From positions 1-56,706 of the IMG/VR virus record IMGVR_UViG_3300037783_000023: 56,706 nucleotides of DNA; one strand, given 5' to 3'. The first letter of the stretch is position 1, and every line of letters begins with the position of its first letter. The position numbers and the translations under genes are program-made. Origin of the DNA: a virus. Lineage: Duplodnaviria; Caudoviricetes. The notes under the pieces are model-generated. The model was given only the letters and a program-made list of their open reading frames with translations. It ran no database searches and was not told where the DNA came from. This document shows positions 11,113 through 19,531 of this stretch, in pieces.

Positions 11113-11693
11113 GTCGTCTCTCCTTTCGCGCGGGCAATGGCGGCAATGGCGGCCGCCATTGCCAGCAACATCGGTTCCATAGAGTGGAGGCGGAAATCGT
11201 CGTGCTCTTTTGACAGGCGGACAGCTCGTCTTGCGACTGCGACCAGTTCCTCGAGCGCTTCGAGCAGATTTGGCGCGGCAGCGTCCGGCTCCTTGACCAG
11301 CTCCATCGTCCGCGGGAATACGGCTGCCAGCATCCTCCGCTTCTCGTCGTCCGTGAGCAGCTTGCTCGCGAGCAGCGAGTTCATCGTTTTGGGGTCAACA
11401 TACTCCGGCGCGACCAGAGGGGTCGTCACCGCCGGGGGGCCGTTTCTGGGGGTTTCGGCAGTCGGAAACGCGAAAACGACCTTGAATTTCCCATCGCCAA
11501 CAATCTCTGCACGGGGCTTGCCCGTGAAATGAGCGAGCCGGGCCGCGACTTTGACGTCTGGGTGATCCATGCAGGCGCGACGGACAAAGTCCGCCCTTTC
11601 GTCCGCCAGAGCCTTCTCGCGGTCTGAGATACTTTTGAATTCGGCCTTTTGATCGTCCGTCATGCGGATGAAGATCTCGATTTGGTGCGTCAT
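11109..11693 (-). CDS. Hypothetical protein with C-terminal AAAPxLLEAL phage motif
   Basis: AGGAG RBS; ATGA overlaps. Confidence 0.6.
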   Translation of the reverse strand: MTHQIEIFIRMTDDQKAEFKSISDREKALADERADFVRRACMDHPDVKVAARLAHFTGKPRAEIVGDGKFKVVFAFPTAETPRNGPPAVTTPLVAPEYVDPKTMNSLLASKLLTDDEKRRMLAAVFPRTMELVKEPDAAAPNLLEALEELVAVARRAVRLSKEHDDFRLHSMEPMLLAMAAAIAAIARAKGETT

Positions 11694-12103
11694 GCCTGTG
11701 CTCCTTTCTGCCGAGCCGCGAGCAGCGCGTCGGCGTATTGATAAGCATTGGTTGCCATATCCTCCGGGGTCGGGAGGCCTGCGTCCGGAGTGGCCCAAGC
11801 GCCGGCGACGATCCCGACCAGCACCCGGATCGCGATTTCATCGCGCAGCTCGGCGTCGTCGAGCGATGGCGGCTCGGATTGGCGCGGGCGGTCGGCGTGG
11901 GTCTCCGCCAGCTCGCGCAGCACCCGGTTCTGTGCCTCGGCAATCTCGCGCCACGTCTTGCCGCCCGCATTGCGCAGCGCGCGGACGTCGCCCTCGCGGA
12001 CGTCCAGCAGCTCTGCGGCCGAGGTCACGCCGAGCTGTCGCAGGGCAGCCATTGCTCGGATTGAGAGCTCAAGGTCGTCGGGCCACTTTTCAATTTTACT
12101 CAT
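11690..12103 (-). CDS. RNA polymerase alpha-CTD-like domain fused to an RD.xA...AY..ADA.. module
   Basis: DDLELSIRAMAALRQLGV...LRNAGGKTWREI aligns by eye with RpoA CTD (DDLELTVRSANCL...PNLGKKSLTEI); TCCACGGAGA RBS. Confidence 0.75.
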   Translation of the reverse strand: MSKIEKWPDDLELSIRAMAALRQLGVTSAAELLDVREGDVRALRNAGGKTWREIAEAQNRVLRELAETHADRPRQSEPPSLDDAELRDEIAIRVLVGIVAGAWATPDAGLPTPEDMATNAYQYADALLAARQKGAQA

Positions 12104-12165
12104 GTATCGTCTCCGTGGATTGGTGCGGGGCCGGAGCCCCGCGATTTCGTTCAGCTCGGGTGAGC

Positions 12166-12468
12166 TCAGTTCGTGCCGGCCTTCGCCCGGTAGCAGCCGG
12201 TCTCCCAAATCGCTCGATAGTCCTCGACTTCGCGCGCCTGATATTCCTCGGACGTGAAGCGGGGCCGCTCGTAGGCCATCAGCAGCATTTGGACGTAGCG
12301 CTCGCCGCGCGCTGCCATGTCGGGCATCAGCGTAGAGATTGCGGTTCCGGCCTGCCGCGCGACCATCACGGCTGCGGCGTCGTCACCGGCCTCGCGGCAC
12401 TCGTCTGCGGTGGCCGCGGTGCTGGCTGCGAGGGTCAGAACGGTGGCAATTGCGAACATCGTTTTCAT
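12166..12468 (-). CDS. Small secreted protein
   Basis: MKTMFAIATVLTLAASTAATA signal peptide; two Cys; AAGGA RBS. Confidence 0.7.
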   Translation of the reverse strand: MKTMFAIATVLTLAASTAATADECREAGDDAAAVMVARQAGTAISTLMPDMAARGERYVQMLLMAYERPRFTSEEYQAREVEDYRAIWETGCYRAKAGTN

Positions 12469-12535
12469 AGGGTCAGTCCTTTTGTTTGCGAGCTGTTGCT
12501 CAGGGGGTTTGTGGGGCGCAGGCCCCGCAACGGGC

Positions 12536-12745
12536 TCACGCCCATTGTTCGTCATTGGTCTGTTCTCGGTGGGCGCTGCGCGCCCGGCGGACATAGGGCC
12601 AGTCGTCGCCGAGCAGGAGCGCACGGTCGCGCAGGGCCTCGGATTGATAGTGGAAACCGAGCCACGACCACGTCACGTCGTCGGTCTCGCCCCGGCCGGA
12701 GAGGTGCAGGTATCGGCGCGTCTCCGGGTTCCAGAGGCGGTGCAT
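12536..12745 (-). CDS. Hypothetical protein
   Basis: GAGG RBS; could alternatively start at GTG 12784. Confidence 0.5.
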   Translation of the reverse strand: MHRLWNPETRRYLHLSGRGETDDVTWSWLGFHYQSEALRDRALLLGDDWPYVRRARSAHREQTNDEQWA

Positions 12746-12780
12746 CCGCGGGTCCTCTTTGCTGGTGAACGGCTTTAGCG

Positions 12781-13302
12781 TCACTCGCTGTCCTCCTGCT
12801 CTGGCGCGTGGCGCAGCATGTAGCTGGCCAGCAGTATTTTCTGGATTTCTGGCCAGTGCTCGCTCCCCTCGATCCACGGGACGAGGTGGTCGCGGACGTA
12901 GGCCATCGCGTCGTCCATGAATGCCGAGAATTCATCCCCGCTCATCGCCCCGAAACTGGTCGAGACCGGCCGCGCGATTATGGCGACCGCCCCCTCGGGG
13001 ACGTCGTGGCGCACGCGCTCCATGCGCGTCATGGGGCGGCTGCGTGTTCGGCCGGTGGCGACGACGAGGTCGTCTTTGACGCTCTCTGCTGTCCACGTCG
13101 CCCCCGCCGGGCCGCTATTAAGCGCCTCGGCGACGTAGGTAACAAACGCCCAAAAAAGGCGGTGCTGCTCAGGGCTGCGGGGGCGCTTCGGCTCGATCTT
13201 GTAGATCGACCCAAACTTGAGCTTCTCGATTGCGAGCTGGCCCGCCTTCGAGGTCGGGACCAGCACGTTCTCGATCCGCCGCACGAAGAACGGGTAGGCC
13301 AT
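12781..13302 (-). CDS. DUF1367/NinB(Orf)-like recombination accessory protein
   Basis: PRSPEQHRLFWA ... STSFGAMS..EFS motif; near ssb/recT. Confidence 0.65.
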   Translation of the reverse strand: MAYPFFVRRIENVLVPTSKAGQLAIEKLKFGSIYKIEPKRPRSPEQHRLFWAFVTYVAEALNSGPAGATWTAESVKDDLVVATGRTRSRPMTRMERVRHDVPEGAVAIIARPVSTSFGAMSGDEFSAFMDDAMAYVRDHLVPWIEGSEHWPEIQKILLASYMLRHAPEQEDSE

Positions 13303-13493
13303 CAGATCAGCTCCTTCTCACGAGCCACGCGCTCCGGCATCCGCGCAACGTAGACCCCGCCATAGGCGGTCGGGTTCAGCGTCACGGTGGAGAGGGGCAG
13401 CCAGACGGCTGCCTCCTTGATCCCGGTGTGAAGCAGCACCTCGGTCGCGGTGCGCTCCTCCACCGCGACGGTCACATCGACGAGCCTGCTCAT
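13302..13493 (-). CDS. Conserved small phage protein
   Basis: VWLPLS...[12 protein letters not shown] motif; coupled to ssb. Confidence 0.6.
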
Positions 13494-13975
13494 GCGCGAC
13501 ACTCCGGTGCGAACGGGATTTCATCGTCAATGACGCCGCCCGGGCGGCCGCCGGAGCCGTAGCCCGAGCCACCGCCGGAGCTGCCCCCATATCCGCCGGA
13601 TGATCCGCCCCCGTCGCCGTCTCTGCGGCTGTCCAGCAGCGTCAGCGTCCCTCGGTAGGGCCGGAGGACCACTTCGGTCGTGTAACGGTCCTGACCGGAT
13701 TGGTCCTGCCACTTGCGCGTCTCAAGCTGGCCCTCGATGTAGACCTTCGAGCCCTTGGCGAGATACTGCTCAGCGATGTTGGCTAACGGCTCGGAGTGGA
13801 TGGCAACGCTGTGCCACTCGGTCCGCTCCTTGCGCTCGCCAGAATTGCGGTCCTTCCAGCTCTCGGACGTGGCGATCCGCAGGTTGCAGACCTTGCCCCC
13901 GTTCTGGAACGTGCGGACCTCCGGGTCGCGGCCGAGGTTGCCCACGATAATGACCTTGTTCACTGATCCAGCCAT
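13490..13975 (-). CDS. ssb: Single-stranded DNA-binding protein
   Basis: [21 protein letters not shown]...DDEIPF. Confidence 0.97.
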
Positions 13976-14212
13976 CTATTCGTCTCCCTGCGCTGTCGGT
14001 GTGGGGGTCGGGTGAACCAGCTCCATTGCGCGAGCGCGGCCCCTCATGCGGCGGATGGCCCCTCGCTCCTCCAGCTGCAGCAGGATGCGGTGGACGCCGG
14101 ATTTGCCCATGTTCAGCGCGTCGGCAATCTCGTCGAGCGATGGGGCGTACTCGTGTTTTTTGATGTAGCCCGCGATAAAATCGCGGGCCTCCATTTGCCG
14201 GGGCGTCAGCAT
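13976..14212 (-). CDS. Stand-alone LexA N-terminal DNA-binding domain (no peptidase domain)
   Basis: MLTPRQ...PSLDEIADALN..KSGVHRIL..LEERGAIRR...RARAMELV resembles alphaproteobacterial LexA N-terminus; 78 aa; TGATG overlap with recT. Confidence 0.85.
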   Translation of the reverse strand: MLTPRQMEARDFIAGYIKKHEYAPSLDEIADALNMGKSGVHRILLQLEERGAIRRMRGRARAMELVHPTPTPTAQGDE

Positions 14213-15417
14213 CACTGCCCCCCCTTCCCGGCGCTCTCGGCCGCCCGGTAGATTTTGGCCTGCGCCCCCTCGGGCAGCGTGGCGATCTGGTCGTCCCACA
14301 AAGCGAGGACCGCGTCGGCGGCATCCGGCGTGTCGCACTCGCCAATGTCCGACATGATCCGGTCGACTAAGCCGCTCGCCTCGTCAGCGTCGGGCTCAGC
14401 CGCTTGGGTGCTCTCCTGCTCCGGCTCCTGCTTCGGCTCCGCCTGTGCCTGTGCCTTTTCGCGCTCCGCAGGCTGCGCCGCCTCCTTCGCCTCGGATTGC
14501 TCCTTGGGGGCGCTGTCCTGCGGCGCCGACTGAGCGGCCTCTGCCGCCTGACCATCGTCCTCGGGTGTGACGTCGCTGGCGGCACCTTCGGCCTCTACGG
14601 CCTCCGCGTCGATGGTTTGACCGGCCTCGTCGTCCTCGGGTGTGACGTCGAGTTCCTGAGCGGGGTTCATGGCGAAATTGGCGAAATCTGCCTGCCCGCC
14701 ATCGACCGTGAGGGCGTCCCGGAATTCGACCGAGAGCGGGAGGTATTTCGCCAGCGCGCGGATGGCGGTTTTCTTCGCCATCTCGTCCTCATGGGTGTGC
14801 CACGGGGATTTCGCGGTCGATCCGAATTTGACGGCTGTCTGCCACCCCTGCGAGCCGTCGCGGATTTTGAGCACCTTCGACCAAGGCAGGACGACGTAGG
14901 CGTGCCCTCCGTCGCGGAATTTGGCGATGGCGTAGGCGTGCAATTTGTCGCCAGCCTGCGCGCCCGGGACGTGGCGCAGGCGCGCTTCGGTCCCCTCCTC
15001 GTATTCCCACACGTCGTCGTCCGAATAATGGACGTTCGCACTGATGGACGTGATGTGCCCGGACCGGCGCGCGAGGTCGATCAAGCCCTTGTAGCCGACG
15101 ACCAGCTGGACCTCCGTGATCTTCTTGCGATTGTTTTTGAAGGGGATCAGGTAGGCGTGGCCCATGATAGTGTTCGGCTCAAGCCCGAGCCCGGCGCAGG
15201 TCATGAGCCCCCCGAGGAGGCTCATGGGGTCGCACTCGGCGAGTTTCGGCGTCGTGCGCATGGCGTTCGCCATGAGGCGCATCATGCGCTCCGGCTTCAT
15301 GTGCGCAGCCGCGACCTGCTGCAGCTGCGCCTTGGCCTGCTCATTCCAGAGAAGCTCCTTCACGTTTGTGACCTGCGTGAGGGGCTTGGATTTGATCTTC
15401 TCGATGGCGGTGCTCAC
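14212..15417 (-). CDS. recT: RecT-family single-strand annealing protein with acidic C-terminal extension
   Basis: LGLEP...AYLIPF...GYKGLIDLARRSG...EMAKKTAIR. Confidence 0.9.
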   Translation of the reverse strand: MSTAIEKIKSKPLTQVTNVKELLWNEQAKAQLQQVAAAHMKPERMMRLMANAMRTTPKLAECDPMSLLGGLMTCAGLGLEPNTIMGHAYLIPFKNNRKKITEVQLVVGYKGLIDLARRSGHITSISANVHYSDDDVWEYEEGTEARLRHVPGAQAGDKLHAYAIAKFRDGGHAYVVLPWSKVLKIRDGSQGWQTAVKFGSTAKSPWHTHEDEMAKKTAIRALAKYLPLSVEFRDALTVDGGQADFANFAMNPAQELDVTPEDDEAGQTIDAEAVEAEGAASDVTPEDDGQAAEAAQSAPQDSAPKEQSEAKEAAQPAEREKAQAQAEPKQEPEQESTQAAEPDADEASGLVDRIMSDIGECDTPDAADAVLALWDDQIATLPEGAQAKIYRAAESAGKGGQ

Positions 15418-16166
15418 AGCTTCGGCTCCTCAATAATCTCGATGCCGGGGATGGTGATGTCCGCGCCCTTGGCGGCGCGAATATCGGCGTTCGCCAGCCG
15501 GGTGATGCAGTCGATCAGGTCGGGGTGCCCCCGGTAGTGCAGCATCGCCTGATTGATATTGGTGATCCGTGCGGAGCGGACCGTCCGCAGGCTGGTGCTC
15601 TTGGACCCGGTGCCTGTGGCGGAGCTGACCTTGAGCTTGCGCTCGGCTTCTGCGGCCTTTTGGGCGGCTGCGGCCTGCGCAGCCTTTTCCTCGGCCTCGA
15701 CCATCGCGGCCGCATTGGCATTGCGCTCGGCAATCTGGCGCTCGCGCTCGGCCTCCTCAGCGGCCTTGCGCGCCGCCTCCTGCTCCGCCCGGCGGCGCTC
15801 CTCGGCGATCTTCTCTTGCTCCTTGAGGTAGGCTTCCAACGGGGCCTTCGCGAGCCTGCCTGCCCTTTCGATCACTTCCGTGATGCGCTTGTAAGCGGCG
15901 TCGACCGCTCTGCCCGCATCAAGGTGGGGTTTTTTGTCCGCCGTCCGGCGCTCATCAATTTCTTTCAAGCGCTTGCGGGCCGCGTCCAAGAAATCCTTAA
16001 GTTCACCGGCCTTGGTCTCGGTCTCGATCTTGGCCTTGGCCCATTCGCCAGCTGCGTCAGCGATGCGCTCGGCCTCCGCCATCATGGCAGCCACCGCCTC
16101 CTCGTCATAGGCGGGCGGGCGATTGTGGCCGATTGCGGCGGCGGTGGTGGGGGTCGTCTCTGTCAT
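15414..16166 (-). CDS. Coiled-coil protein (Gam/Gp157-like context)
   Basis: IGHNRPP start, long EAAR coiled coil, IPGIEI end; coupled to recT. Confidence 0.6.
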   Translation of the reverse strand: MTETTPTTAAAIGHNRPPAYDEEAVAAMMAEAERIADAAGEWAKAKIETETKAGELKDFLDAARKRLKEIDERRTADKKPHLDAGRAVDAAYKRITEVIERAGRLAKAPLEAYLKEQEKIAEERRRAEQEAARKAAEEAERERQIAERNANAAAMVEAEEKAAQAAAAQKAAEAERKLKVSSATGTGSKSTSLRTVRSARITNINQAMLHYRGHPDLIDCITRLANADIRAAKGADITIPGIEIIEEPKL

Positions 16167-16180
16167 AAATTGCCTTTCGG

Positions 16181-16561
16181 TTAGGGTCGGATTTGATCGG
16201 CGCGCAGCCGGATCGGGGCGTGGGTCGCCGCCATTTCGGGATGGCGACGCTGTAGGTCTTTAAGTTCGAGGTATTCAGCCCGACTGATCGGGCGCTTGCA
16301 GACGGAGAGCCACGCCCGGCGGGGGTCGCGCGGCTCGCCGTTGATTTCGCAGACCATGCGCTCGTCGCAGGTCAGCTCCCCGTGCTCGTCCACCTCGCGG
16401 ACGATTGAGATTGAGGCGGGGACGAACGGGCCGCCTTTGACGAGCCGGGTTTTATACCAGCCGCAATGGGGCTCCCCCTCGTGGATGGGGACTGGCGCCC
16501 CGGCCAGCGCAGCACGATGCCACGCATACAGCCGGGAAACGGGGGTCGGCTGGCGGATCAT
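16181..16561 (-). CDS. Hypothetical protein
   Basis: GWYKTRLVKGGPFVP motif; coupled. Confidence 0.65.
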   Translation of the reverse strand: MIRQPTPVSRLYAWHRAALAGAPVPIHEGEPHCGWYKTRLVKGGPFVPASISIVREVDEHGELTCDERMVCEINGEPRDPRRAWLSVCKRPISRAEYLELKDLQRRHPEMAATHAPIRLRADQIRP

Positions 16562-16872
16562 TTTCCGCCCCCCTCAGCCGCGATCATGGCGTCGGCGACA
16601 GCGTAGCAGCCCTGAGCAAGCCTCTCCGGGGTCAGCTGATTTTCCGGGTGCGCGCTCAGAAGTGCTTGCATCGCCAATTCCGCAAGACGCTTGCGCTCCG
16701 CGGCCTTGCCGTTCTGCCGGGTCAATTCGCCTGAAAGGTAGAGCTTAAGCGCGTGGTTGATCTCAGTGCTCATCGACCGGCTGTTCTGATCGGCCGAAGC
16801 CGCCACCCGCTCCTTGAGCTCGGGCGCCATTCGCAGCCCATAGGGCGCGACCTGTTTGCTCTCCGCGCTCAT
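16558..16872 (-). CDS. Arc-family ribbon-helix-helix protein + C-terminal shared module
   Basis: YGLRMAPELKERV...NSRSMSTEI; C-term CYAVADAMIA. Confidence 0.8.
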   Translation of the reverse strand: MSAESKQVAPYGLRMAPELKERVAASADQNSRSMSTEINHALKLYLSGELTRQNGKAAERKRLAELAMQALLSAHPENQLTPERLAQGCYAVADAMIAAEGGGK

Positions 16873-17459
16873 GGCTTGCGCTCCCTTTCGGCCATCATCG
16901 CGTCGGCGATCAGGTAGGCTTTGCGCGCGACGAGGGTGTCTTGCGCGCAGAGGTCCGCAAGGCCTACGAGCGCGGCCTCGGCGAAGCGGTCGCGCATGTC
17001 TGCTGCAGGAGCGTTGTTGTAGTGGGCGTCCAAAGCCTCGCAGATTTCTGCGTTGACGGACTTCTCTCCCGACGCCGCAGATACCTGCTCATAAAGCGCC
17101 TGCGGGACGCGGATCGTGTAGCGCGTGTATTCCTGCTGGCGCGCCGATTGACCGCCAAGGTGCGCCTGCAATGCGAGAACGATCTCCCCGTTCATCGTTC
17201 TGTTCGCCTCAGATGCTTTTGACTTAACTCCATCCCGCAGGTCGTGCGGGATGCGAATGCGAAGCTCTGCGTCTCCACGCGCCATGTGGTCGTCTCCCTG
17301 AATTTCGTGATTGATCGCCGCGCTCAAGATTTGAACGATCTCGGCGTTCATTGAGCGGCCCGCTTTGCGGGCCCGCTTTTTGATCTCGTCGCGCATCCCG
17401 CCCGGAAGGCGGACCATCATTTTGGGCAAATGCCGTGATGGGCTGTCTTGAACGCTCAT
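16869..17459 (-). CDS. Triple Arc-domain protein + C-terminal shared module
   Basis: MVRLP...RSMNAEI; LRIRIP...RTMNGEI; YTIRVP...KSVNAEI; then MRDRFA...AYLIADAMM. Confidence 0.8.
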   Translation of the reverse strand: MSVQDSPSRHLPKMMVRLPGGMRDEIKKRARKAGRSMNAEIVQILSAAINHEIQGDDHMARGDAELRIRIPHDLRDGVKSKASEANRTMNGEIVLALQAHLGGQSARQQEYTRYTIRVPQALYEQVSAASGEKSVNAEICEALDAHYNNAPAADMRDRFAEAALVGLADLCAQDTLVARKAYLIADAMMAERERKP

Positions 17460-18580
17460 ACAGACACCAGATCGAGCAGCTTGCCGCCCTTGCGCTCGAG
17501 TGCGACCCGGGCGTCCTGATGCTCGATGCTCTTTGCGTGGGCTGTGACGCCGGTCACCGCGTCCCACACGGTCTCAATTGGGCGGCTCTCCTCCCGCTCA
17601 TGCGCCGCCTTGATCGCGGTCGCCTCCGGCCGCGTGAAACGCTTAAGCAAAAAGGCGTCGAGGTCGTCGTCCACCCGCTTCTGCTGCGCCTCCCGGATGG
17701 TCTGCTCGATGGGCGCGGCGCTGGCGGCTGAATACTCCATCAGCACCGGGCTGATTTCCTCCAGCCAGCGGTCAGGAGCCGATGCGGTGTGGCGGAGCCT
17801 GATTTCCTTGAAGCCCTCGGCTCCCCACACGATGCGGTTTGAGCAGGCGTAGTCGAACAAGAAAAAGGCGGCCCCGATGGACTGGCTGCCGACCTCGCTG
17901 TTCCAGACAAAGAAACCGCGAGCCAGCGAGCCGGAGCGCCCGTTCCGGCGGTTCGGCATCTCGACCCGGTTCACCTCGTCGGCCAAGAACACGAAGATGT
18001 CACGATCTGATCCATAAATGGTGGTGTTCGCCTTGGTGATCGGCACGGCCTGTCCGAATTCGCCCGGCACCCGGAAGTCGCCGGTGCGGCCGTCACCGAA
18101 TTTGTCCGTAAGGGCGGTCACGATTTCCTCGTTCCACACCCTGCCGTAACGAGGCCCTGTCGCGGCGCGCAGTTCGTTGTGCGCAATAAGCTCGCCGCCC
18201 ATTGCGACCGGCTCGTTCTCGGTCCGCAGCAGCCCGACCTCCTCAGCGTCGCGATGGAACCGCAGGCAATAATTGAGGGCGTCGGCCGCAATCGGCGCAG
18301 GCAGTTTGCGCAGCTCGCGCGCCGAGAACCCTGCGAGCGAGGCGAGCTGGCCGAATGACCAGTGCGTCGGGTCGACGATCGTCCCCTCGTTATCGATTGT
18401 GAGGCCCCACTTGGGGTCTGCCGGGTGCGGCTGGACCTCAATGCGGCGGGTGGTCGTCACCGAGGCGACGGAGCGTTCGCGCTGCCCGGCGACCGCGTCG
18501 CGCAGGTCGGTCAGGCTCAAGAACCGCTCGTCGGCCGGGCGCGAGGCCCACTGGCGGGATGCGTGCATAAGTGTCGTCAT
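17456..18580 (-). CDS. DUF932-family protein
   Basis: QWASRPADERFLSL...THWSFGQL...GFFVWNSEVG...CSNRIVWG. Confidence 0.75.
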   Translation of the reverse strand: MTTLMHASRQWASRPADERFLSLTDLRDAVAGQRERSVASVTTTRRIEVQPHPADPKWGLTIDNEGTIVDPTHWSFGQLASLAGFSARELRKLPAPIAADALNYCLRFHRDAEEVGLLRTENEPVAMGGELIAHNELRAATGPRYGRVWNEEIVTALTDKFGDGRTGDFRVPGEFGQAVPITKANTTIYGSDRDIFVFLADEVNRVEMPNRRNGRSGSLARGFFVWNSEVGSQSIGAAFFLFDYACSNRIVWGAEGFKEIRLRHTASAPDRWLEEISPVLMEYSAASAAPIEQTIREAQQKRVDDDLDAFLLKRFTRPEATAIKAAHEREESRPIETVWDAVTGVTAHAKSIEHQDARVALERKGGKLLDLVSV

Positions 18581-18769: not shown

Positions 18770-18820
18770 AACATAACCAACAATTTGTGGATCAGACAAG
18801 CGAAAAAACACAAATTGTTG
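18770..18820 (-). promoter_or_regulatory. PL-like promoter with two repressor operators
   Basis: TTGTCT (18794-99)-N18-TATGTT (18770-75); operators CAACAATTTGTGG (18778-90) and ACACAAATTGTTG (18808-20). Confidence 0.7.
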
Positions 18821-18873: not shown

Positions 18874-19065
18874 ATGTGCAGGACTTACAACGACACAGAG
18901 CTAGACCGTCGCCTCGATCGCATGATTGAGGTGGCAACCGAGCTCGGGTGTCCGCTGGACCATGTCGTCGAGCACATGGGGCGGTGCGATCAAAGTGATT
19001 TTCGGAGGTTCTCCGGTAGCCCGTCGCTTCTGCCCCGGTACACGAAGTCAAGCGTGACGCCGTAA
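18874..19065 (+). CDS. Small SOS-regulated protein, candidate antirepressor
   Basis: ATG 2 bp after LexA box; likely leaderless; 3' end overlaps the repressor gene convergently. Confidence 0.55.
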   Translation: MCRTYNDTELDRRLDRMIEVATELGCPLDHVVEHMGRCDQSDFRRFSGSPSLLPRYTKSSVTP

Positions 19066-19247
19066 CGAGCGCAAAGCTCTATCGCTGCCTCCACCGGGAT
19101 GCGGCGAAACCCGCGTTCCCAGTTATTATATTGAGCCAAGTTAAAGCGGTTCTTGAGCGCCCAATCTTTTTGATTGAGGTCCGAAAAGGCCCTGCGGATG
19201 CGTACCAGACGCTGCCCGATCTCATGGTGTTCAAACGTGTCACTCAT
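18990..19247 (-). CDS. Prophage repressor, HTH_XRE only (85 aa)
   Basis: IGQRLVRIR...NQKDWA...YNNWERG...YGVTLDFVY; divergent from cro; no S24 autopeptidase. Confidence 0.85.
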   Translation of the reverse strand: MSDTFEHHEIGQRLVRIRRAFSDLNQKDWALKNRFNLAQYNNWERGFRRIPVEAAIELCARYGVTLDFVYRGRSDGLPENLRKSL

Positions 19248-19531
19248 GGTCGAGTGATCCACGAAATGTGAACCGCCAAGCAAGCAACCACTTGTGGGCT
19301 TGCATTTTCCCACAATTTGTTGATTTTGAGGGGATGCAGACAGCTAAAGAAATCTCCGCCCGCTTCGGGCAAAGAACCATCGCCGCAACGCTGGGCGTCA
19401 GCGTCGGGGCGGTCAGCAACGCCGTTGTCCGGGGTCAGTTCCCGGCGAGCTGGTACGTCGCAATTCAAAGCCTGTGCAACCGTGACGGCGAGCTCTGTCC
19501 CGTCGAGGCATTCGCTTTCAAACCTATTCAT
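19244..19531 (-). CDS. Possible antisense ORF (95 aa) opposite cro, stop overlapping repressor start
   Basis: GGAGGAGG-N7-ATG within hairpin+TCCACGGAG element; TGA overlaps repressor ATG (ATGA). Confidence 0.35.
   Translation of the reverse strand: MNRFESECLDGTELAVTVAQALNCDVPARRELTPDNGVADRPDADAQRCGDGSLPEAGGDFFSCLHPLKINKLWENASPQVVACLAVHISWITRP
19259..19330 (+). promoter_or_regulatory. OR/PR-like region with operator repeats
   Basis: CCACAATTTGTTG (19310-22), CAACCACTTGTGG (19285-97), degenerate CCACGAAATGTGA (19259-71); TTGCAT -35 at 19300-05. Confidence 0.7.

What the first reader, a model, noticed from the sequence alone, without database searches (positions are those of the whole stretch)
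11690..17459. Three different transcription modules share one C-terminal domain (Arc, 3xArc, RNAP alpha-CTD)
Seen: ORF 11690-12103 ends LRDEIAIRVLVGI...MATNAYQYADALLAAR, ORF 16869-17459 ends MRDRFAEAALVGL...VARKAYLIADAMMAER, ORF 16558-16872 ends RKRLAELAMQALL...LAQGCYAVADAMIAAE. This helical motif is familiar from small uncharacterised phage proteins, but here three copies in one operon are each fused to a DNA- or RNAP-related domain. Inference: the module may be a homo/hetero-oligomerisation tag that assembles a mixed complex, e.g. Arc DNA-binding heads carrying an alpha-CTD mimic to chosen promoters. I know of no description of such a system.
Basis: partly seen in the sequence, partly recalled or inferred. 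Interest (0 to 1): 0.78.

Follow-up and report, generated by a model that had tools for sequence, protein, structure and literature searches.

The report
Shared helical tail on phage regulators
Three DNA-binding proteins of one phage end in the same two-helix module, which is the core of a very large, unnamed family of small phage proteins and is probably a plug-in pairing domain, though nobody has tested its function.

Summary
Three minus-strand genes of a complete 56.7-kb phage genome carry different DNA-binding heads: 11690-12103 has an RNAP alpha-CTD-like head, 16558-16872 has one Arc/RHH, and 16869-17459 has three Arc/RHH. All three end in one homologous module of about 45-55 aa. A profile built only from foreign standalone proteins finds just these three tails in the window (E 2e-11, 2e-11, 2e-8; next best 1.8).

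The module is a helix-loop-helix hairpin. It is the core of a very large family of about 80-aa phage proteins (phrog_2201; 52,471 clusters at E<=1e-3). It has no Pfam or NCBIfam model, no solved structure by sequence, and no paper in six searches.

Fusions to DNA-binding heads recur elsewhere. Among the 120 best longer hits, 12 carry alpha-CTD (in both orders), 8 carry Arc and 2 carry HTH_3.

[quoted passage not shown] The support is independent tandem duplications, a compact four-helix AlphaFold2 model of a tandem form, and tails that are exchanged between relatives.

Nothing supports the mixed Arc/alpha-CTD complex. The three tails are only 38-43% identical. Two of them arrived in one recombination cassette, and a close relative has only two tailed proteins. 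One observation is unexplained: the alpha-CTD protein's tail shows dN/dS 1.7 against 0.14 for its head.

The parts
11690..12103 (-). P0001, 137 aa: alpha-CTD-like head + linker + module tail
   Evidence: Translation. Pfam PF03118 at 34 bits, cut-off 23.8. Orthologues P0004-P0007 have the same start. AF2 mean pLDDT is 84.
11936..12079 (-). alpha-CTD-like helix-hairpin-helix head of P0001 (aa 9-56)
   Evidence: Pfam match. Residue alignment to solved RpoA CTD chains, best E 3.8e-4.
11693..11857 (-). module tail of P0001 (aa 83-137): helix 83-104, loop, helix 113-136
   Evidence: pLDDT 85-96 over aa 81-130, 80 for the last block. dN/dS is 1.73 against the L032 orthologue.
16869..17459 (-). P0003, 196 aa: three Arc/RHH repeats + module tail
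   Evidence: ATGA overlap with the DUF932 gene upstream.
17016..17438 (-). three RHH repeats of P0003 (aa 8-52, 63-104, 110-148)
   Evidence: Pfam Arc at 85.8 bits with 2 stretches, PHROGs with 3 stretches. Alignment A6 shows the repeats a, b and c.
16872..17003 (-). module tail of P0003 (aa 153-196)
   Evidence: It is the same subtype as the tails of P0017, P0161, P0014 and the standalone P0011.
16558..16872 (-). P0002, 104 aa: one Arc/RHH + module tail
   Evidence: Homologues P0272 and P0273 carry a precomputed PF03869 hit. ATGA overlaps at both ends.
16561..16698 (-). module tail of P0002 (aa 59-104). It is the most divergent of the three and has a charge-swapped pair: D5 to K and R48 to E in profile positions.
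   Evidence: It is the only one of 290 module instances with this double swap.
16561..17155 (-). 595-bp mosaic cassette relative to the close relative L032. It holds RHH repeat 3 and the tail of P0003, plus all of P0002.
   Evidence: The blastn alignment of the window and L032 breaks exactly here. L032 has 176 bp in its place, encoding a different tail.

Best explanation
The shared tail is an autonomous, swappable two-helix hairpin. Profile consensus: xLRD[YW]FAxxA[LM]xG, a variable loop, then AxxAYxxADAMLxxR. I propose that the hairpin pairs with a second copy to form a four-helix bundle.

On DNA-binding heads it would act as a plug-in dimeriser, in these ways:
- It would give the monomeric alpha-CTD-like head of P0001 two DNA-binding units on flexible linkers. 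That resembles the two CTDs of the RNA polymerase alpha dimer.
- It would link RHH units of P0002 and P0003 into assemblies that read adjacent operator sites cooperatively. [quoted passage not shown]

Shown:
- The three tails are homologous.
- The family is very large.
- Fusions to DNA-binding heads recur.
- Tails are exchanged between relatives.
- AlphaFold2 predicts a hairpin fold.

Inferred:
- The pairing itself.
- The stoichiometry.
- DNA binding by the heads.
- Any effect on transcription.

The three proteins most likely act as separate regulators that use the same kind of tail, not as one mixed complex.
For: 1. Homology and autonomy. A foreign-only HMM finds the three tails at E 2e-11 to 2e-8. 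The same tail subtype sits on 1x, 2x and 3xArc heads, on an alpha-CTD head and on a standalone leader (P0161, P0017, P0003, P0014, P0011).

2. Fold. AF2 gives helix 83-104, a loop, and helix 113-136 in P0001, with pLDDT 85-96 over aa 81-130 and 80 for the last block.

3. Pairing.
- Of the 150 best family representatives, 9 carry 2-3 module stretches, and 8 of these are true tandems.
- In the 7 tandems with two full-length copies, the two copies are 33-87% identical to each other. That points to several independent duplications.
- The tandem P0010 folds in AF2 into one compact four-helix unit, with pTM 0.75 and pLDDT 83.5.
- One phage record has two adjacent standalone module genes.

4. Partners. 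Among the 120 best hits of 108 aa or more:
- 12 carry alpha-CTD, 7 with the module N-terminal and 5 with it C-terminal.
- 8 carry Arc.
- 2 carry HTH_3.
All of these are DNA-binding heads that gain from dimerisation.

5. Swappability.
- The 92%-identical relative L032 has the same 2xArc head with a different tail.
- P0274 has the head of P0002 with an unrelated C-terminus.

6. Precedent. [quoted passage not shown]
Against: - No experiment or solved structure exists.
- The tandem model is a single-chain prediction, and its alignment is deep for only one of the two repeats.
- Near-invariant polar residues fit a specific binding site at least as well as a generic bundle core. R4, D5, Y38, D42 and R48 are 96-100% conserved in 290 top-scoring instances, a sample biased to good matches.
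- The tail of P0001 evolves with dN/dS 1.73, against 0.14 for its head and 0.05-0.11 for neighbouring genes. This rests on one pair of sequences and 55 codons, with Fisher p 0.006 for tail against head. A plain dimeriser would be expected to be under purifying selection.
- Dimerisation alone does not explain what the far more common standalone proteins do. 55 of the 150 best carry a G[GQ]xAFP leader motif.
- It also does not explain the single fusions to MazG and to DUF551.
Confidence: 0.45

Rival explanations
1. The module is an adaptor that binds one conserved third party, for example a host protein of the transcription or replication machinery. Standalone proteins would occupy or inhibit that target. 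Fused forms would tether a DNA-binding head to it, or tether the target to DNA.
For: - Polar residues are near-invariant across phages of many proteobacterial hosts.
- dN/dS is 1.73 in the variable half of the P0001 tail, as in conflict or specificity interfaces.
- The module is repeatedly fused to alpha-CTD in both orders. In P0177 the CTD part is 68-70% identical to annotated rpoA genes, which suggests a captured host domain.
- Standalone genes sit in early regions. Where neighbours are annotated, they are recombination or replication genes: 18 of 67 neighbours matched a PHROG, and RecT, Sak or exonuclease genes directly flank the module gene in 3 of 18 loci.
Against: - No target is identified.
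- Nothing in PADLOC matches the module.
- The tandem duplications and the compact tandem model fit self-pairing more simply.
- Partners as different as Arc, HTH_3, alpha-CTD, MazG and DUF551 do not point to one machine.
Confidence: 0.25
2. The three tails cross-associate, so that Arc heads (P0002, P0003) carry the alpha-CTD-like P0001 to chosen promoters as one mixed complex.
For: - Three copies in one phage is unusual. Of 10 other module-bearing phage records, 9 have one copy and 1 has two.
- The conserved face of the module is nearly identical in P0001 and P0003, so promiscuous pairing is conceivable.
Against: - The tails are only 38-43% identical and belong to different subtypes.
- P0002 alone has the K5/E48 charge swap.
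- The two Arc tails arrived together on a cassette that the close relative L032 lacks. L032 keeps the alpha-CTD protein with one 2xArc protein that bears a third tail type.
- One record with an alpha-CTD+module protein has no second module gene, although that record is estimated at 72% complete.
- No co-variation of tails within genomes was seen.
Confidence: 0.1
3. Only the adjacent, translationally coupled pair P0003 and P0002 forms a heterodimer through the tails. Three plus one RHH strands then give two complete RHH dimers. That matches a homodimer of the 2xArc+tail proteins found elsewhere. P0001 would act on its own.
For: - ATGA overlaps couple the two genes.
- They were acquired as one cassette.
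- An odd number of RHH repeats cannot be satisfied within one chain (established RHH biology, own knowledge).
- Relatives carry 2xArc+tail.
- P0159 (2xArc+tail) and P0272 (95% identical to P0002) are both listed with a longest contig of 4226 bp. That is compatible with a donor gene pair, but not verified.
Against: - This is purely a parity argument.
- A P0003 homodimer would also satisfy all RHH units (six strands, three dimers).
- The charge swap in the P0002 tail could equally well insulate it from the P0003 tail.
Confidence: 0.1
4. The shared tails are by-products of phage mosaicism and have no common function in these three proteins.
For: Recombination at domain borders is evident.
Against: - The core motif is conserved in all three tails.
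- The same fusions recur in many lineages and in both orders.
- All reading frames are intact.
Confidence: 0.05

Closest known systems
phrog_2201 (with phrog_20565, 30599 and 37111): small phage proteins of unknown function, e.g. Burkholderia phage Bcep176 gp38
   Same: The three tails match the C-terminal module of these profiles. 10 of 10 standalone representatives tested match phrog_2201 at E 1e-16 to 3e-29. Cultured phages of Burkholderia, Pseudomonas, Paracoccus, Rhizobium, Klebsiella and others carry the standalone form, annotated as 'hypothetical protein'.
   Different: The window's proteins lack the N-terminal G[GQ]xAFP leader and carry DNA-binding heads instead. PHROGs gives no function. 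phrog_30599 is labelled 'transcriptional regulator', presumably because of an Arc head.
Mnt repressor of phage P22 and AmrZ: an RHH head plus a C-terminal helical oligomerisation domain
   Same: The architecture and the proposed logic are the same: an RHH dimer plus a helical C-terminal domain that builds higher oligomers (PMC3325190, passages read).
   Different: No sequence relation was detected. The profile search of solved structures gave only one chance-level match, E 0.63. Oligomerisation of the present module is inferred, not shown.
C-terminal domain of the bacterial RNA polymerase alpha subunit (Pfam PF03118)
   Same: The head of P0001 passes the Pfam cut-off and aligns to solved CTD chains. 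It keeps the Arg of the 'LS[IV]R' motif and the N-x-G-x-K motif. That these residues are the DNA-contacting ones is recalled, not tested.
   Different: There is no alpha N-terminal domain, so P0001 is not a polymerase subunit. The Asn-Cys that follows the Arg in the RpoA chains is Ala-Ala here. The head scores equally well against the CTD-like region of BREX PglW.

Membership tests
phrog_2201-type helical module (unnamed family) | Profile match over helix 1 (LRD.FA..A) and helix 2 (A..AY..ADAML..R) | tested here: met
   An HMM built from foreign sequences only gives E 2.1e-11 (P0001), 2.1e-11 (P0003) and 2.3e-8 (P0002). P0002 departs at D5 (to K), A37 (to C) and R48 (to E).
phrog_2201-type helical module (unnamed family) | N-terminal G[GQ]xAFP leader of the standalone proteins | tested here: not met
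   The leader is absent from P0001-P0003. It is present in 55 of the 150 best representatives, so it is a feature of the standalone form, not of the module.
RNA_pol_A_CTD (PF03118) | Pfam gathering score | tested here: met
   34 bits against a cut-off of 23.8, over aa 9-56.
RNA polymerase alpha subunit (RpoA) | N-terminal dimerisation and assembly domain; NCBIfam equivalog score | tested here: not met
   The best rpoA equivalog scores 29 bits against cut-offs of 228-523, and only the CTD region is matched.
Arc/RHH (PF03869), P0003 | Pfam gathering score; repeated beta-strand-helix-helix units | tested here: met
   85.8 bits against a cut-off of 20.4. Three stretches in PHROGs 2685, 795 and 3178. 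Repeats a, b and c are aligned in A6.
Arc/RHH (PF03869), P0002 | Pfam gathering score | tested here: inconclusive
   20.1 bits against a cut-off of 20.4. RHH PHROGs match at E 4e-9. The 95%-identical P0272 carries a precomputed PF03869 hit.
Mnt-type C-terminal tetramerisation domain | Sequence or fold relation to the Mnt C-terminal domain; measured tetramer | not testable with these tools
   No sequence match to any solved chain at a meaningful E-value. The oligomeric state needs an experiment.

The most novel reading that the evidence does not exclude
The module is a phage-wide pairing code. Because its conserved face is nearly invariant, free standalone modules and module-tagged DNA binders (Arc, HTH, captured alpha-CTD) can exchange partners. 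Small standalone proteins would then act as dominant-negative or recruiting partners of tagged regulators. This would be comparable to Id/HLH or bZIP networks in eukaryotes. In this phage an alpha-CTD decoy could be brought to Arc-bound operators. The fast-evolving variable half of the tail (dN/dS 1.7) would tune who pairs with whom, including between co-resident phages.
Probability: 0.1. Interest if true: 0.85.

Novelty: new variant of a known kind. Interest (0 to 1): 0.58.

Why it matters
A family with at least 52,471 clusters at 50% identity has no Pfam or NCBIfam model, no solved structure and no paper that I could find. Small early phage proteins of this kind are the largest blind spot in phage genome annotation.

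The fusions found here (captured alpha-CTD, Arc, HTH_3) give the first functional handle on the family: a link to DNA binding and transcription.

If the module is a portable dimeriser, it explains how phages build new regulators by swapping heads and tails, and it offers a very small natural dimerisation part. If instead it binds a host factor, the standalone proteins would form a large class of host-takeover proteins.

Either answer can be reached with simple biophysics on 50-residue peptides.

Tried and rejected
- Complex prediction on the P0003 tail (aa 148-196) with the P0001 tail (aa 78-137), each with its own alignment. The verdict was 'no answer': score 0.02 in both runs against a mark of 0.32, and the controls were not run. 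It counts neither for nor against binding.
- Foldseek of the tandem model against PDB gave no match at E<=0.001. VIA-align against 48,161 chains gave a best Z of 7.5 (TFIIS domain II), within the range the tool calls a common helical arrangement.
- Foldseek of the P0001 model against BFVD gave no match at E<=0.001. The rows only show that phage proteins annotated as alpha-CTD exist.
- The profile search of solved structures gave one chance-level row, AscG at E 0.63.
- The ESM Atlas look-up of a standalone member returned only 'hypothetical protein' viral clusters at score 0.90.
- Searches for close relatives of P0003, P0162 and P0002 in viral contigs, and of the 2xArc group in genome contigs, gave no locus that shows the donor arrangement.
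- tblastn of P0001 against 50,697 phage records found only the tail in one phage, present as two records. None of 47 records covered 80% of the module-alpha-CTD fusion P0177.
- The scan's earlier findings held nothing related.
- Six paper searches found nothing on the module or on phage alpha-CTD fusions.
- I considered a Gam-like role, because the module gene lies between the exonuclease and annealase genes in three loci (L013, L015, L018; L013 and L018 are near-identical). I dropped it as too thin.


Full report
**What is there**

The window is a complete virus record of 56,706 bp with direct terminal repeats. Its leftward early gene string on the minus strand runs as follows:
- DUF932 (17456-18580)
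- P0003 (16869-17459)
- P0002 (16558-16872)
- a 126-aa unknown protein
- an exonuclease-like protein (phrog_10477)
- RecT
- a protein with only a LexA-type DNA-binding domain
- SSB
- a 66-aa unknown protein
- a NinB-like protein
- a 152-aa protein of phrog_2315
- P0001 (11690-12103)
- further small genes, including a Lar-like one and YbcO
- an integrase

The DUF932 gene, P0003, P0002 and the next gene are joined by ATGA stop/start overlaps.

**The heads**

- P0001 has an alpha-CTD-like head at aa 9-56. It scores 34 bits on Pfam PF03118 against a cut-off of 23.8.
- P0001 aligns to solved RpoA CTD chains with a best E of 3.8e-4. It keeps the Arg of the LS[IV]R motif and the N-x-G-x-K motif, but has Ala-Ala where those chains have Asn-Cys. 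That these positions are the DNA-contacting ones is my recollection.
- P0003 has three RHH repeats. Pfam Arc scores 85.8 bits, and three stretches match in the PHROGs.
- P0002 has one RHH. Its Arc score is 20.1 bits against a cut-off of 20.4, and RHH PHROGs match at about 4e-9. Its 95%-identical homologue P0272 carries a precomputed Arc hit.

**The tails are homologous**

- All three tails match the C-terminal ends of phrog_2201, 30599, 20565 and 37111.
- None matches any Pfam model, even at E<=10.
- BLASTP gives E 1e-4 for P0001/P0002 and 0.007 for P0001/P0003. It did not align the tails of P0002 and P0003 to each other.
- The cleanest test is an HMM built from 131 standalone proteins of other origin. 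Among the 1046 six-frame ORFs of the window it finds exactly these three tails, at E 2.1e-11, 2.1e-11 and 2.3e-8. The next best is E 1.8.
- Pairwise tail identities are 18/42, 17/41 and 15/39.

**What the module is**

A profile of 17 module sequences was made from the three tails and 14 viral loci. Scored against 1.84 billion cluster representatives, it gave 52,471 hits at E<=1e-3 and 2,527 at E<=1e-10.

Features of the best 150 hits:
- Their median length is 78.5 aa.
- The module usually sits at the C-terminal end. The median number of residues after it is 0, and only 3 of 150 have more than 15.
- 55 of 150 carry an N-terminal G[GQ]xAFP leader.

The consensus is xLRD[YW]FAxxA[LM]xG, a variable loop, then AxxAYxxADAMLxxR. 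That sample is biased towards good matches. The loop tolerates inserts of tens of residues.

What the databases hold on the family:
- Standalone members match no Pfam or NCBIfam model at curated level.
- 10 of 10 tested standalone members match phrog_2201, which has unknown function.
- No solved structure is related by sequence.
- Cultured phages of Burkholderia, Pseudomonas, Paracoccus, Rhizobium, Klebsiella, Hafnia and Acidovorax carry the standalone form as 'hypothetical protein'.
- Six full-text searches found nothing on the module.

**Fusion partners**

A search for longer proteins (108 aa or more) gave 875 hits at E<=1e-3 among 8000 scored candidates. The 120 best were listed. Pfam domains in these 120:

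| Partner | Count of 120 | Note |
|---|---|---|
| alpha-CTD | 12 | 11 at or above the cut-off, 1 just below |
| Arc | 8 | |
| HTH_3 | 2 | |
| MazG | 1 | |
| DUF551 | 1 | |
| no Pfam domain at E<=0.001 above its cut-off | 96 | includes one sub-cut-off SH3_15 hit (P0228); many are only standalone-type proteins with long leaders or long loops |

- The alpha-CTD lies C-terminal of the module in 7 proteins and N-terminal in 5. The fusion has therefore arisen more than once.
- In P0177 the CTD part is 68-70% identical to genes annotated as rpoA. That looks like a captured host domain.
- One protein that a source names 'prophage regulatory protein' (P0184) looks AlpA-like by eye only.
- The window's architecture is thus one instance of a general habit of this module. 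It is not a unique system.

**Structure**

- AlphaFold2 on P0001, with an 82-row alignment, gives mean pLDDT 84 and pTM 0.48.
- The tail forms helix 83-104, a loop, and helix 113-136. Its pLDDT is 85-96 over aa 81-130 and 80 for the last block.
- The low pTM fits a head and a tail on a flexible linker.
- The natural tandem protein P0010 has two modules in 104 aa. It is modelled as one compact four-helix unit, with pLDDT 83.5 and pTM 0.75. Its alignment is deep for the second repeat only.
- Fold searches gave nothing beyond generic helical bundles.

**Evidence on pairing**

- Of the 150 best representatives, 9 have 2-3 module stretches. 8 of these are true tandems.
- In the 7 tandems with two full-length copies, the copies are 33-87% identical to each other, which points to several independent duplications. 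Such duplications fit a unit that works in pairs.
- One other phage record has two adjacent standalone module genes.
- A 45-aa hairpin is unlikely to be stable alone (general protein knowledge).

**History of the locus**

- A metagenome contig, L032, is syntenic with the window and about 92% identical in DNA.
- The alignment breaks at window 16561-17155 (595 bp), where L032 has 176 bp.
- At this place L032 has one gene: the same first two RHH repeats followed by a different module tail. It is followed directly by the homologue of the 126-aa protein.
- The window's third RHH, the tail of P0003 and the whole of P0002 are therefore one imported cassette.
- The RHH arrays are modular. The forms [b][c]+tail, [a][b]+tail and [a][b][c]+tail all occur with the same tail subtype. 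That subtype also sits on a 1xArc head, on an alpha-CTD protein and on a standalone protein.
- P0274 has the head of P0002 with an unrelated C-terminus.
- Heads and tails are thus freely recombined.

**Copy number**

Of 10 other module-bearing phage records, 9 have one copy and 1 has two. This is not a random sample. The 20-kb locus L032 has two copies. Three copies, as in the window, is therefore unusual, but two of them came in together.

**Unexplained observations**

- Between the window and L032, the head of P0001 (codons 1-82) has dN/dS 0.14 with dS 0.158. Its tail (codons 83-137) has dN/dS 1.73 with dS 0.126.
- SSB, DUF932 and NinB give dN/dS 0.05-0.11.
- The counts of differing codons are 17 nonsynonymous and 3 synonymous in the tail, against 4 and 8 in the head (Fisher p 0.006).
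- The changes sit in the C-terminal half of helix 1, in the loop, and at scattered positions of helix 2. The core motif is untouched.
- This rests on one sequence pair and 55 codons. Still, a plain dimeriser would be expected to be under purifying selection.
- P0002 is the only one of 290 collected module instances with both D5 to K and R48 to E. This charge swap fits a contact between the two ends of the hairpin, within one chain or between two chains.

**Reading**

- Most likely (0.45): the tail is a portable self-pairing hairpin. [quoted passage not shown]
- Rival (0.25): the conserved face binds a third party, and the fusions tether DNA-binding heads to it. The invariant polar residues, the dN/dS result and the captured alpha-CTDs keep this open.
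- The one complex prediction I could run gave no answer. It is reported only under Tried and rejected.

**Novelty**

The kind of protein is known: a DNA-binding head with a helical oligomerisation tail. The module itself is listed only as PHROGs of unknown function. Its size as a family and its recurrent fusions, including fusions to captured alpha-CTD, appear undescribed in the sources I could search.

Noticed in passing
window 11693-11857 (tail of P0001) compared with L032 10001-10411: The tail has dN/dS 1.73, while the head of the same gene has 0.14 and neighbouring genes 0.05-0.11, at similar dS. This suggests diversifying selection or relaxed constraint on the variable half of the module.
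   Followed up: partly
proteins P0172, P0177, P0207, P0209, P0227, P0246, P0257 (not in the window): These are standalone-type module proteins with an alpha-CTD fused at the C-terminus. In P0177 the CTD part is 68-70% identical to annotated rpoA genes, as if a host domain had been captured.
   Followed up: partly
window 18778-18820 and 19282-19325: Two inverted repeats share a CAACAATTTGTG-like arm. They lie on either side of the HTH repressor-like gene 18990-19313, one just 3' of it and one overlapping its 5' end. They are candidate operators of the immunity region.
   Followed up: no
window 13976-14338 (-): This gene lies between RecT and SSB. It encodes only a LexA-type winged-helix DNA-binding domain (Pfam LexA_DNA_bind, E 2.3e-13), with no peptidase domain.
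   Followed up: no
L013 2899-3135, L018 227-463, L015 767-1111: In these viral loci the standalone module gene lies directly between a RecE-like exonuclease gene and a RecT-like gene (L013), directly before a RecT-like gene (L018), or between a Sak annealase gene and an exonuclease gene (L015). L013 and L018 are near-identical.
   Followed up: no
L031 9914-10120 and 10072-10281: Two adjacent, slightly overlapping small genes each encode a divergent copy of the module (E 4.7e-5 and 5.1e-16). They are the unfused counterpart of the tandem proteins.
   Followed up: no
fusion proteins P0186, P0184, P0260, P0263, P0204, P0172 (not in the window): The Met that begins many short standalone forms is kept at the internal start of the module in fusion proteins. 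It is M in 96% of 290 instances. This could be structural, or it could mark an internal translation start that yields free module.
   Followed up: no
protein P0274 (not in the window): It has the same Arc head as P0002 (75% identical over half the query) but an unrelated C-terminal region of about 110 aa in place of the module.
   Followed up: no
window 12166-12624 (-): This 152-aa ORF (phrog_2315, unknown function) lies just upstream of P0001. It contains a hydrophobic, signal-peptide-like stretch, judged by eye.
   Followed up: no
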